From the IMG/VR virus record IMGVR_UViG_2551306674_000013: DNA of 19,629 nt, one strand, 5' to 3'. Origin of the DNA: a virus. Taxonomy: Duplodnaviria > Heunggongvirae > Uroviricota > Caudoviricetes. A program made the position numbers. Positions 3,001 through 6,000 of this stretch are shown here, piece by piece (positions within the stretch are counted from its first letter, which is position 1; each line of letters opens with the position of its first letter).

Positions 3001-6000
3001 GCTCTATTTGTTTGTTTTCGCCTTCCAGGCGGTGACCACGTTTACGGTAGTCGCCATCAACAGCAATCAGGTATAGGCATTTATGACTGTCAGCCCGCCA
3101 GCGACGTGGCGGAAGTTCCCCCAGGCATGACAGGATAATATTGCGTACGATCTCCTGCATCCCGGCGTCATTGATATCGCAGTCCAGAGCCACCACCCCG
3201 TCGCCAGTACGAACGCAAATACCGTAATCGGGTTCGTTCGACCACCGGGCAAAATCGTTTTCCGTAACAACATAGTTAGCCCAGTCGGGGATACCAACAA
3301 CCTTACGTTGGCCATTGTAGCGACTGGGAGTTTTGCCGAAATTATGAGACAGCTTGCTATTAGGCGACAGTTCTGCACAGGGATTGGACACCACAGGTAA
3401 AAGCCTGTCTGTCATCCCCAACACCAGATCGAAGTGGAACCACTCATCGGGCGTAGCTCCCCATGGTTTGTTATCAGACATGGGTTACGCCTTTTGTCTA
3501 GCTGTCACTTCCTGAAAAAGCTTTTCTATCGCACGTACTGTAGAAAAGCGAGGGTCAGAATGAACCCCGGTGAGAAGCCGACTAATAGAAGACTGCTTCA
3601 CGCCTGCAATTTCGGCAATTTGGTTTTGGGTATACCCTGAATCAATCAAGCTTTTGACCATCTCTTGTGGTGTTAGTCCGGACATATTTAAGTCTCCACT
3701 TTCGTCTATAGCGCAAATTTATACGAAAACGGATTATTCAGCAATACAGCAATTCTATGTCATCCTGGATTAAAATATCCGATAACGCATAATCACCGTC
3801 CCTGTATACAACATGGATGAATCCAAATGATTGATACTACCGATATCCTTTCTCAAAACATCAAGTACCTGATGGACAAAGCCAAGATAAGCTCGATAAC
3901 TGAGCTGGCACGTCGGTTACAGCTGAACCAACCAACGCTACACAGGCTGGTATCAGGAGAGGTGAAAGATCCGAAATACGCAACGTTAAAGCAGATCGCC
4001 GACTACTTCCACGTGTCACCAATAGACCTGGCAGAAAGGAGCCTTCAAGAAATGGAGAAAGAGGACGCGACAGGTATAAAAACGTATATTTCTCTTAGGT
4101 TTAATAAAGTACCTGTTTTGGGAAACACTCAGCTAGGCGTAGGAGGACTTTGGAGCGACACCCAATATTCAGTAGGTAGCAGTGATGGTTTCATATACTG
4201 GCCGACAAAGGATGAAGATGCATACGCCCTGAAATGTGTTGGTGATTCAATGATGCCTAGAATCAAAGAGGGTGAGTTCGTAATCGTCGAACCCAACCAC
4301 GACTACACTCCTGGTGATGAAGTACTTGTGGTTACCCAGGACGGTGAGGTCATGGTTAAAACCTTCTTGTTCGAACGCGATGGCCTGTTCCATCTAATGT
4401 CTGTAAATGAAGATCATCCACCAGTCAGAGTACCACGCGAAAACATTGAAAAAATCCATTACGTGGCGGGGATCGCCAAATCCGCGCTACGCATGTACTA
4501 ACCTTTACAGTCTGATAACTTACTTCTGATCAAACCGCTCTCCACAAGGGCGGTTTTCTTATTTGCAAAATAATTCATTTTCGTATTGACACAAAATCCC
4601 ATAACGCATATAAATACGATATCGCATAATTAATGCGTTTTTTAATACCAGCTCTTTAACAAACTGAACCGCGTGACAGGTAAGCCGCAGTACTCCTGGC
4701 AAAATGAAATGGCACCCGATGGGATCGAGGTAAGCGCCGAGTCCGTATGCGTACGGTAAGCGTAGAGGACAACACCGCGACGAACTGATAAGTCACGCAA
4801 GTTGAAACGCCCCGACGATGGGGCGCTTAGTTCCTTTAACTCTGGGTGGCCGGAAAGGTACCCATGCTTAAAGAAATTACTGGTTGTAAGGATCGTAATC
4901 CGTGATTGCCTTCCCCGGATTTTCATCTTCAGCAGGCAGTCTGGCCTCTAAAGCATTTCGGTTGAACAGATAGGAAGCCCTACAGTGCGAACAAACCATA
5001 TTAACGGCTCGCCCAAGGCCTGGCTTAATAACCAGACCTTCCGCTTGCAATATAGATTTTCTCTTTTGCTCGTAGCAATTGGGACAAATATAAACCGGAG
5101 ATTGGTCAGTATCTGCAGAAAGCTTGCTGCGATAGACCAGAGTACCCCGCATAGGCTGGTAAAGTTCATAGCTCGCCGCTTCAGCGGCCCAGTTCTCTTG
5201 CTTTACTTTCTCATTTTCCAGTTCAACAATTTTCTCCTTAGCCGCAATCAGCAGCTCCTGAAGCGACATTTGCTGCATCTGAACATCCATTAGCTTATCG
5301 AGTAAGGTGTGCGTCTTCTCTTTAACTGCATAGTCGACAGTCAGATTCTGAATCTCTCTTGCTGCTCCAACCGCGCCTTTAATTGCTCCTCCCACGCCGG
5401 ATAACGATTCAGTTATCCGGGAAAGAATTCCTTTTTCTTCAGACATATCTAATCTCTCTCAAACTGTAGGGGTGAAGAGATATTAGACGATTTCTCACTG
5501 TAGGGGTACAAGGAGAACCACCTCGCCTGATGTGGTTAAAAGCAGGCACTCGATGATATCCATGTAATTGCTGTGTGTAGTCTTTGCCCGCCGCAAATGA
5601 CGGGCTTTTTTATGTCTGAAAGCGCACTCGCAACAGCGCGCTCCCCGATATGAAAAAAGGAATACAACCGATGAAACCTGAACACCTCTATCGACTGACG
5701 GGGCGCGATGTTCTCCGTTATCGCCGTAAAAACTTCGATTTGATGACCGGTCTGGCCGTTGCCACTGCGCTCGGTCTGATCATCACTTTCATTCTCCTTG
5801 TAGCGAGGACCACAGTATGAGTTTAGAAACCAGTCTCGAACTTAATAATCAACTTCTGGCACAACATAATGCGCTGCTTGAACGTCTTATCCGCACAATG
5901 GCATCAGGTATTGTTATGCATCCTGACACGATTTCACGAGTGCAGGAATGTCGGGATACAGCAACTGAAACTGAAAATATGTCAGCGGCAATGACACTGG

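What the first reader, a model, noticed from the sequence alone, without database searches (positions are those of the whole stretch)
3777..4613. Same 15-bp operator-like motif in the cI/cro switch and in the spacer of the PL-like promoter
Seen: ATCCGATAACGCATA at 3777..3791 and ATCCCATAACGCATA at 4596..4610 (14/15 identical); both sit between candidate -35 and -10 elements of rightward promoters, and CGCATA recurs at 4622..4627 with its complement at 4631..4636. Inference: CI (or Cro) binds both sites, i.e. these are OR- and OL-type operators, supporting the 4586 promoter being repressor-controlled.
Basis: seen in the sequence. Interest (0 to 1): 0.45.

Follow-up and report, generated by a model that had tools for sequence, protein, structure and literature searches.

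The report
Phage repressor operators at two promoters
The repeated 15-bp motif is real and is very probably the binding site of this temperate coliphage's CI/Cro repressors at both early-promoter regions, which is an ordinary lambda-style immunity switch; the less ordinary part is that the controlled promoter drives an unannotated, widely conserved structured RNA that begins with a ribosomal-type boxA.

Summary
ATCCGATAACGCATA (3777-3791) and ATCCCATAACGCATA (4596-4610) are there, 14/15 identical; only 9 of 3000 shuffles reach that match. They belong to a family of five 16-bp, partly palindromic sites. Two lie in the cro/cI gap, one in each promoter spacer. Three lie at a TTGACA-17-TATAAA promoter downstream of cI. 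Three comparisons support the operator reading. (1) Against a diverged homologous immunity region, the sites are the conserved islands. (2) Among same-immunity relatives, 4/80 site positions vary against 49/210 other intergenic positions (p=9e-5). (3) About 20 heteroimmune cassettes sit at the same place, and of the 16 types tested most carry their own motif in both regions; the swapped cassette runs from cro to the last base before boxA. So this is an OR/OL-type switch, a new member of a known kind. Binding itself is untested.

The promoter drives a 176-nt module (4651-4826). It starts with an rrn-identical boxA and has covariation-supported helices. It has no Rfam family and occurs once per locus in every prophage locus searched (about 100). 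An intrinsic terminator follows it before the early operon, and no N gene was found. It may be an N-independent antitermination RNA; that is inference only.

The parts
3485..3685 (-). cro-like gene (66 aa, HTH_3); the primase/DUF5906 gene (1220-3481) follows it directly
   Evidence: Pfam. Weak match to the 434 Cro structure, E=0.014.
3716..3744 (-). PR-like leftward promoter for cro: -35 TTGCTG (3744-3739), 17-nt spacer, -10 TAAATT (3721-3716)
   Evidence: Read from the sequence. The same layout is conserved in L006 as TTGTTT-17-TAGATT. It scores below the scanner's threshold, so this is inference.
3720..3735 (.). Operator S1, TATACGAAAACGGATT (reverse complement AATCCGTTTTCGTATA). It fills the cro promoter spacer; its last 2 nt start the -10.
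   Evidence: conserved island. No variable position among same-immunity relatives.
3766..3793 (+). Weak rightward cI promoter (PRM-like): TGGATT-16-CATAAT
   Evidence: L006 has CATATT at the same place with a poor -35.
3776..3791 (.). Operator S2, TATCCGATAACGCATA. 12 of 16 positions are self-complementary.
3827..4501 (+). cI-like repressor gene (224 aa; HTH_26/HTH_3 plus Peptidase_S24, with GDSM and VKTF motifs)
4532..4556 (+). Intrinsic terminator of cI (10-bp stem plus T-rich tail)
   Evidence: An equivalent hairpin is present in L006.
4572..4587 (.). Operator S3, AATTCATTTTCGTATT. It overlaps the -35 by 2 nt and is 13/16 identical to the reverse complement of S1. OL2-like position.
   Evidence: Read from the sequence. 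Conserved block in the L006 alignment. One variable position.
4586..4614 (+). PL-like promoter TTGACA-17-TATAAA
   Evidence: Nearly all cassette types have TTGACN, then 3 nt, then their own motif at this place.
4595..4610 (.). Operator S4, AATCCCATAACGCATA. It starts 3 nt after the -35 and its last 2 nt start the -10. OL1-like position.
4613..4628 (.). Operator S5, AATACGATATCGCATA. 12 of 16 positions are self-complementary. It covers the end of the -10 and the expected start site.
4623..4643 (+). Inverted repeat CGCAT/ATGCG plus T6. It is either an operator half-site or a weak 5' RNA hairpin. It is not conserved in L006 or L025.
4651..4662 (+). boxA GCTCTTTAACAA, identical over 12 nt to the rrn boxA-spacer. 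It is the first base of the block shared by all cassette types.
   Evidence: PMC2724277, Table 1.
4651..4826 (+). Conserved structured RNA module: boxA, P1, P3, P4' and a terminal hairpin
5586..5611 (+). Intrinsic terminator GCCCG-N10-CGGGC-T6, 38 nt before the first early-operon ORF (5650)

Best explanation
The window carries the immunity region of a temperate E. coli phage. It is 99.4% identical to Escherichia phage vB_EcoM-606R2.

The 15-mer is the core of a 16-bp, partly palindromic operator, roughly WATNCGWTWWCGYATA, present five times. S1 lies in the spacer of the leftward cro promoter. S2 lies in the spacer and -10 of the rightward cI promoter. S3, S4 and S5 cover the -35 edge, the spacer, and the -10/+1 of a strong rightward promoter just after the cI terminator.

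In a lysogen the CI-like repressor, as a dimer, would occupy these sites and shut off the cro/primase/Q transcript and the rightward early transcript. After CI is lost, the Cro-like protein would use the same sites, chiefly S2, to shut off cI. This is the lambda OR/OL logic.

Shown here: the sites exist, they are non-random, they are conserved against a diverging background, they sit on promoter elements, and they co-vary with the immunity cassette. Inferred: that CI and Cro are the binding proteins, and the order in which the sites fill.

The controlled promoter transcribes a boxA-led structured RNA, then an intrinsic terminator, then the exonuclease, SSB, C4/Ant and DNA polymerase genes.
For: Identity of the element.

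Gene identities.

Statistics of the motif.

Shared geometry: the cro promoter reads TTGCTG-aat-AATCCGTTTTCGTA|TAAATT and the downstream promoter reads TTGACA-caa-AATCCCATAACGCA|TATAAA. In both, the order is -35, 3 nt, a 16-bp site, and a -10 that begins with the site's last two bases. L006 keeps this layout.

Footprint against L006/L029: their CI and Cro are homologous but diverged, and the conserved islands are the sites.

Variation among 11 same-immunity loci, including one at 86% identity: 0/32 site positions vary against 17/109 others in the cro/cI gap (p=0.009). Over both gaps, 4/80 vary against 49/210 (p=9e-5).

Cassette swap: heteroimmune prophages keep the flanks (window 3400-3495 and 4651 onward) and replace everything between them.

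Co-variation: the 91 loci fall into 23 promoter clusters. Of 16 types that could be tested, 11 share 13-mers with at most 1 mismatch between the promoter region and one upstream spot, at 3-16 hits against fewer than 1 in shuffles. In the three types checked (window, L002/L004, L005) that spot is the cro/cI gap. Four of the remaining five share shorter type-specific 8-9-mers, for example GTGGTATTT and GGTTAAGA.
Against: No binding or expression data exist.

The -10 of the downstream promoter is TATAAA, which lacks the usual T at position 6.

The cI promoter is weak and below the stock scanner's threshold.

The cro/cI gap has only two recognisable sites, 56 bp apart, rather than three at 23-24 bp spacing.

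Symmetry is partial: 8 to 12 of 16 positions are self-complementary.

A single 14/15 match on its own has p of about 0.003, which is not overwhelming.

The S5 region could instead act as a 5' RNA hairpin.
Confidence: 0.8

Rival explanations
1. The sites are used by only one of the two immunity proteins, for example Cro alone, or by another cassette-encoded or host factor. CI would then act elsewhere.
For: There appear to be two site sub-classes. S1 and S3 have a TTTT centre; S2, S4 and S5 have an ATAA/ATAT centre. This could mean two proteins with different preferences. No binding data exist.
Against: The cassette encodes only CI and Cro, and the motif co-varies with the cassette. Between the window and L006, the Cro recognition helix is almost unchanged while the CI helix differs. 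Operator position 4 switches from mostly C to always G, which fits CI reading the sites. That argument rests on few sites. No LexA, DnaA or IHF consensus is visible by eye.
Confidence: 0.1
2. The downstream part of the motif cluster (4613-4643) works at the RNA level. It would be a 5' hairpin plus U-run that attenuates or stabilises the transcript, rather than an operator.
For: The scanner lists CGCATAATTAATGCG plus T6 as terminator-like. L067 keeps a hairpin, CGCAT-AAACA-ATGCG plus TTTT.
Against: The stem has only 5 bp. It is broken in L025 (ATGCA) and absent from L006, although L006 keeps operator-like sequence there. It would lie at about +2 to +22 of the transcript, too close to the start for normal intrinsic termination.
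Confidence: 0.07
3. The similarity is a chance resemblance between two AT-rich promoter regions, or a relic of duplication.
For: Both regions are AT-rich. CGCATA alone is not enriched.
Against: Only 9 of 3000 shuffles reach 14/15. There are five sites, all on promoter elements. The sites are conserved against a diverging background. The same two-place pattern recurs with unrelated motifs in many cassettes.
Confidence: 0.03

Closest known systems
Lambda immunity region (cI, cro, OR1-3/PR/PRM, OL1-3/PL)
   Same: The cI gene (HTH plus S24) and a small cro gene are divergent. One operator family occurs both in the divergent gap and at a second early promoter downstream of cI, reading the same way. 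The operators lie in the promoter spacers and over the -35. The S3-S4 spacing of 23 bp resembles the 24 bp between OL2 and OL1. From my own knowledge, lambda PL reads TTGACA-taaa-OL1 with the -10 inside OL1. The whole block swaps as a cassette, as in the imm434 and imm21 hybrids.
   Different: The sites are 16 bp with an unrelated sequence. Only two sites are seen in the cro/cI gap, 56 bp apart. There is a third site at +1 of the PL-like promoter. There is no rexAB. cro is followed directly by a primase gene. The PL-like promoter is followed by a boxA-led RNA module rather than nutL and N. The CI has no close solved relative; the best match is a LexA fragment at E=0.004.
Lambda nutL / N antitermination
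   Same: A boxA lies about 30 nt downstream of the PL-type start site. A terminator stands ahead of the early operon.
   Different: The boxA is the rrn form, not CGCUCUUA. There is no boxB pentaloop hairpin within about 10 nt of it. No N-like gene was found downstream in the window or in the 11 other contexts inspected.
HK022 put RNA (putL/putR)
   Same: It is a cis-encoded RNA just downstream of the early promoter in phages without N, and it could replace N.
   Different: put is about 70 nt, has two stem-loops, acts without Nus factors, and occurs at both PL and PR (PMC9378689). This module is 176 nt, multi-branched and boxA-led, and occurs once per locus. It shows no sequence similarity to any GenBank phage outside its own group.
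rrn operon leader antitermination (boxB-boxA-boxC with NusB/E, NusA, NusG, SuhB)
   Same: Twelve of 12 bases match the rrn boxA-spacer. A long untranslated transcript, about 1 kb in the window, would need protection from Rho.
   Different: No boxC-like GU-rich element was recognised. The hairpin upstream of boxA is not conserved across cassettes. The 130-nt structured domain has no counterpart in rrn leaders.

Membership tests
Lambdoid CI/Cro OR-OL immunity switch | Divergent genes for an HTH plus S24 repressor and a small HTH Cro | tested here: met
   Pfam: Peptidase_S24 at 1.3e-18 and HTH_26 at 3.7e-12 for the 224-aa protein; HTH_3 at 1.2e-9 for the 66-aa protein.
Lambdoid CI/Cro OR-OL immunity switch | Repeated, partly palindromic operators overlapping both divergent promoters | tested here: met
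   S1 lies in the cro promoter spacer and S2 in the cI promoter spacer and -10.
Lambdoid CI/Cro OR-OL immunity switch | The same operator family at a second early promoter beyond cI (OL/PL) | tested here: met
   S3, S4 and S5 at TTGACA-17-TATAAA, after the cI terminator.
Lambdoid CI/Cro OR-OL immunity switch | Operator sequence co-varies with the repressor (immunity) type, and operators travel with the cassette | tested here: met
   There are 23 promoter clusters upstream of one shared module. Eleven of 16 tested types share type-specific 13-mers in both places, and four more share shorter motifs. The swap boundaries are at window 3496 and 4650.
Lambdoid CI/Cro OR-OL immunity switch | Three tandem operators about 23-24 bp apart at each of OR and OL | tested here: inconclusive
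   The OL side has three sites, at 23 and 18 bp spacing. The OR side has only two recognisable sites, 56 bp apart, with no conserved middle site.
Lambdoid CI/Cro OR-OL immunity switch | CI and Cro physically bind the sites and repress the promoters | not testable with these tools
   Needs EMSA or footprinting and reporter assays.
Lambda-type nut site with N | boxA followed closely by a boxB hairpin, and an arginine-rich N protein | tested here: not met
   boxA is present. There is no boxB next to it. There is no N-like ORF or PHROG hit downstream.
HK022 put RNA | About 70 nt with two stem-loops, one copy after PL and one after PR, independent of Nus factors and boxA | tested here: not met
   The module is a 176-nt multi-branch fold with boxA, occurs once per locus, and has no sequence match. 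Features of put are taken from PMC9378689.
Any Rfam RNA family | Score at or above the family's gathering threshold | tested here: not met
   The only hit in the window is C4 at 9343-9426. Nothing lies on the + strand of 4651-4826, even at E<=10.

The most novel reading that the evidence does not exclude
The repressor-controlled PL-like promoter drives a previously undescribed cis-acting RNA (window 4651-4826). It consists of an rrn-type boxA fused to a roughly 130-nt structured domain. It would make RNA polymerase resistant to Rho and to the intrinsic terminator that stands before the early operon (5586-5611), doing the job of lambda N/nutL or HK022 put without a phage protein. It moves as a discrete module among at least 20 immunity types in both lambdoid and non-lambdoid enterobacterial prophages.
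Probability: 0.35. Interest if true: 0.7.

Novelty: new member of a known kind. Interest (0 to 1): 0.32.

Why it matters
For the finding itself, the analysis gives a usable operator and promoter map for an unstudied group of E. coli prophages: five sites and three promoters. It also shows how to read immunity specificity from sequence, because each cassette's motif recurs at fixed positions relative to the -35.

The wider value is in what the promoter controls. The 176-nt boxA-led RNA has covariation-supported helices. It occurs in about 2% of complete E. coli genomes and in other enterobacteria. It always lies between a repressor-controlled early promoter and a terminator, and it is neither annotated nor in Rfam. 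If it is an antiterminator, it would be a third solution to early-operon readthrough, alongside N/nut and put.

Tried and rejected
- Rfam at gathering and at permissive thresholds found only C4, elsewhere in the window.
- BLAST of the module against 50,697 GenBank phages found only the four vB_EcoM relatives. There is therefore no detectable similarity to HK022 put or to any lambdoid nut region.
- Prophage sRNAs (AgvB, AsxR, Esr41, STnc100, Pas) were considered. The named ones have Rfam models that did not hit, and the Pas genes lie in other contexts.
- The mEpimmI Nus-dependent phages are a different group, with an N-like Gp17 and boxA/boxB nut sites.
- Coding potential of 4651-4826 was rejected. 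The short ATG frames are lost in most variants.
- A hammerhead-like reading of CUGAUAAG...GAAAC was rejected. The core G is absent, and GUCACGC pairs with GCGUGAC with covariation.
- A covariance-model search for a second, PR-side copy of the module found exactly one copy per locus.
- The alternative leftward promoter CGGATA-18-TAGAAT was rejected as the main cro promoter because it is not conserved in L006.
- The single-sequence fold of the transcript is unremarkable, z = 0.43. Structural support comes only from comparison between sequences.
- A literature search for the phage name found nothing.

Full report
**What the window is.** The region is 99.4% identical to Escherichia phage vB_EcoM-606R2 and three sister phages. 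It occurs as a prophage in about 100 complete E. coli genomes.

Reading leftward from the finding are a 66-aa HTH_3 protein (3485-3685, Cro-like), a Prim-Pol/DUF5906 primase (1220-3481), and an antiterminator Q gene (167-589). In the annotated phage, lysis and terminase genes follow.

Reading rightward are a 224-aa HTH plus Peptidase_S24 protein (3827-4501, CI-like) and its terminator (4532-4556). Next comes the promoter at 4586. After about 1 kb comes an operon with an exonuclease, a Gp2.5-like SSB, a C4 RNA with an Ant protein, and a DNA polymerase.

**The observation.** Both 15-mers are at the stated coordinates and are 14/15 identical. Three tests show they are more than chance:
- The 15-mer with up to 3 mismatches hits three times in 19.6 kb, against 0.52 expected.
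- The palindromic form TATNCGNTANCGNATA with up to 2 mismatches hits four times, always in the two regulatory gaps, against 0.61 expected.
- A 14/15 match between the two gaps arises in 9 of 3000 dinucleotide shuffles.

CGCATA is at 4623-4628. The partner is ATGCG (4633-4637), which forms a 5-bp inverted repeat followed by T6. It is not an exact complement.

**Anatomy.** Reading the sequence and aligning it with a diverged homologous cassette gives five 16-bp sites.

| Site | Coordinates | Sequence | Position |
|---|---|---|---|
| S1 | 3720-3735 | AATCCGTTTTCGTATA (reverse complement) | cro promoter spacer |
| S2 | 3776-3791 | TATCCGATAACGCATA | cI promoter spacer and -10 |
| S3 | 4572-4587 | AATTCATTTTCGTATT | overlaps the -35 of the PL-like promoter |
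| S4 | 4595-4610 | AATCCCATAACGCATA | PL-like promoter spacer |
| S5 | 4613-4628 | AATACGATATCGCATA | -10 end and expected start site |

Self-complementarity is 8 to 12 of 16 positions.

The cro promoter and the downstream promoter share one geometry: -35, then 3 nt, then the 16-bp site, whose last two bases begin the -10.
- cro promoter: TTGCTG-aat-AATCCGTTTTCGTA|TAAATT
- downstream promoter: TTGACA-caa-AATCCCATAACGCA|TATAAA

S2 fills the spacer and the first four bases of the -10 of a weak cI promoter, TGGATT-16-CATAAT. S3 overlaps the -35 of the downstream promoter and lies 23 bp from S4.

From my own knowledge of lambda, OL1 lies in the PL spacer and OL2 over the -35, 24 bp apart. S4 and S3 are therefore OL1-like and OL2-like. 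S1 is OR1-like and S2 is OR3-like.

**Comparative tests of the operator reading.**

*Footprint against a diverged cassette.* L006 and L029 carry homologous but diverged CI (225 aa) and Cro (71 aa). In the aligned cro/cI gap the conserved islands are exactly S1 and S2. In the promoter region the conserved blocks are S3, the -35, and the S4 end with the -10 and S5.

*Variation among same-immunity relatives.* Eleven loci were compared, one of them only 86% identical. In the cro/cI gap, 0/32 site positions vary against 17/109 other positions (p=0.009). Over both gaps, 4/80 vary against 49/210 (p=9e-5).

*Cassette swap.* Heteroimmune prophages keep window 3400-3495 and everything from 4651 onward, and replace all that lies between. 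In L002 and L004, TACAGGTTTACTTGTA appears in the cro/cI gap. It appears again, 15-16 of 16 identical, 3 nt after the -35 of the promoter just upstream of the same boxA. In the lambdoid L005, ATCCACATG and AAATCAACA do the same.

*Generality.* The 91 loci fall into 23 promoter clusters. Of 16 types that could be tested, 11 share 13-mers with at most 1 mismatch between the promoter region and one upstream spot, at 3-16 hits against fewer than 1 in shuffles. In the three types checked (window, L002/L004, L005) that spot is the cro/cI gap. Four of the remaining five share shorter type-specific motifs.

The promoter and its sites belong to the immunity cassette and co-vary with it. That is the defining behaviour of OR/OL operators.

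**Which protein binds.** This is inference only. Between the window and L006, the Cro recognition helix is nearly unchanged (QSSISRLLTG against QSSICRLLTG). The CI helix differs (NQPTLHRLVSG against QQSTLQRMLAG). Operator position 4 is C, C, T, C, A in the window and always G in L006. This hints that CI reads the sites, but the sample is small. Lambda-like sharing of sites by both proteins remains the default.

**What the promoter drives.** The shared block begins at boxA, GCTCTTTAACAA (4651-4662). It is identical over 12 nt to the rrn boxA-spacer (ugcucuuuaacaa) and unlike lambda's cgcucuua (PMC2724277, Table 1). The block ends at 4826 with a hairpin, CGCCCC-GAYGAU-GGGGCG, that has no U-run.

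Distribution of this 176-nt module:
- It is found once per locus in all 104 loci scanned with the covariance model.
- It is found in Citrobacter, Pseudocitrobacter and Trabulsiella genomes.
- It is found in 104 of 5426 complete E. coli genomes, always full length and never annotated as an RNA.
- It is found in only four GenBank phages.
- It matches no Rfam family.

Covariation supports an RNA structure. The P1 pair 22-147 occurs as CG, AU, UA and UG. L081 carries a CG-to-UA double change in P3. A third sequence type (L097, L100, L102, L103) rewrites P3 from ACCCGAU-GGG-AUCG-A-GGU to GCCGCGA-AGGA-UCGC-A-GGC, giving 6 of 9 compensatory pairs. L098 converts CCGUA-UGCG-UACGG to CCGUG-UGCG-CACGG. 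Overall, 9 pairs change on both sides against 4.1±1.4 in shuffles and 0-1 in slid controls. That alignment was fitted to the model, but the P3 changes are visible in the raw sequences.

**Context of the module.** In 11 of the 12 contexts inspected (the twelfth, L009, has too little downstream sequence), a strong + strand intrinsic terminator lies between the module and the first early gene. In the window it is GCCCG-N10-CGGGC-T6 at 5586-5611, 38 nt before the ORF at 5650. No promoter-like site lies between them. The stretch between module and terminator holds variable cargo. In the window this is the opposite-strand orf189, so the transcript has about 1 kb of untranslated leader. No N-like gene was seen.

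I therefore propose that the module is a cis-acting, probably Nus-assisted, antitermination element. Nothing here tests that function, and I rate it at about 0.35. It fails the membership tests for a lambda nut site, because it has no boxB and no N. It also fails those for HK022 put, which is 70 nt, has two stems, occurs in two copies and has no boxA (PMC9378689).

**Verdict.** The operator system is an ordinary lambda-type immunity switch with its own sequence and a two-plus-three site layout, so it is a new member of a known kind and of modest interest. The conserved boxA-led RNA under its control is the item worth following up.

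Noticed in passing
window 4651-4826 (+): A conserved 176-nt structured RNA module. It starts with an rrn-identical boxA and ends in a hairpin without a U-run. It has no Rfam family and is never annotated as an RNA. It occurs once per locus in about 100 IMG/VR prophage loci and in 104 of 5426 E. coli genomes. Helices P1, P3 and P4' are supported by compensatory changes.
   Followed up: partly
window 5586-5611 (+); same arrangement in L003, L005-L008, L010, L018, L036, L039, L041: A strong intrinsic terminator always stands between the RNA module and the first early-operon gene. No promoter lies after it, and no N-like gene is present. Early-operon expression therefore seems to need readthrough from the repressor-controlled promoter.
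   Followed up: partly
L005 about 3190-3215; L041 just after the module: In lambdoid contexts and in L041, a Shine-Dalgarno sequence plus a 3-codon mini-ORF directly follows the module. The mini-ORF is ATG AAG AAC TAA or ATG CAC AAG TAA.
   Followed up: no
type-B loci (e.g. L005 2935-2998): Lambdoid versions carry an extra conserved leader of about 65 nt between the promoter and boxA: CATCGAAACGAAACATCGACAGCTGAGCGAAGTTAGCCAGCGGCGGACAGCAAGTCGCCTG. Their boxA reads GCTTCTTTAACAA.
   Followed up: no
window 9343-9426 (+) and 9478-10242 (+): A C4 antisense RNA (Rfam RF01695, 70.6 bits) is followed by an Ant-like anti-repressor. This is a P1/P7 immI-type second immunity element inside the operon driven from the PL-like promoter. 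A promoter-like site lies at 9209-9238 and a terminator-like site at 9298-9312.
   Followed up: no
window 5463-5473 and 5497-5507: An exact 11-bp direct repeat, ACTGTAGGGGT, occurs twice, 34 bp apart, just upstream of the minus-strand orf189 (4877-5446; phrog_1244, unknown function). It may be a regulatory site for that cargo gene.
   Followed up: no
window 6722-7240 (+): An HNH/NUMOD4 endonuclease ORF lies between orf300 and the DUF2800 exonuclease in the window and in L003. It is absent at the same junction in L002 and L004. This looks like a homing-endonuclease insertion polymorphism.
   Followed up: no
window 3827-4501: The CI-like protein has the S24 catalytic motifs (GDSM and VKTF). No canonical Ala-Gly cleavage site is evident in the linker (…VPVLGNTQLGVGG…). 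Whether it is RecA-inducible is open, and the Ant/C4 element may provide another induction route.
   Followed up: no
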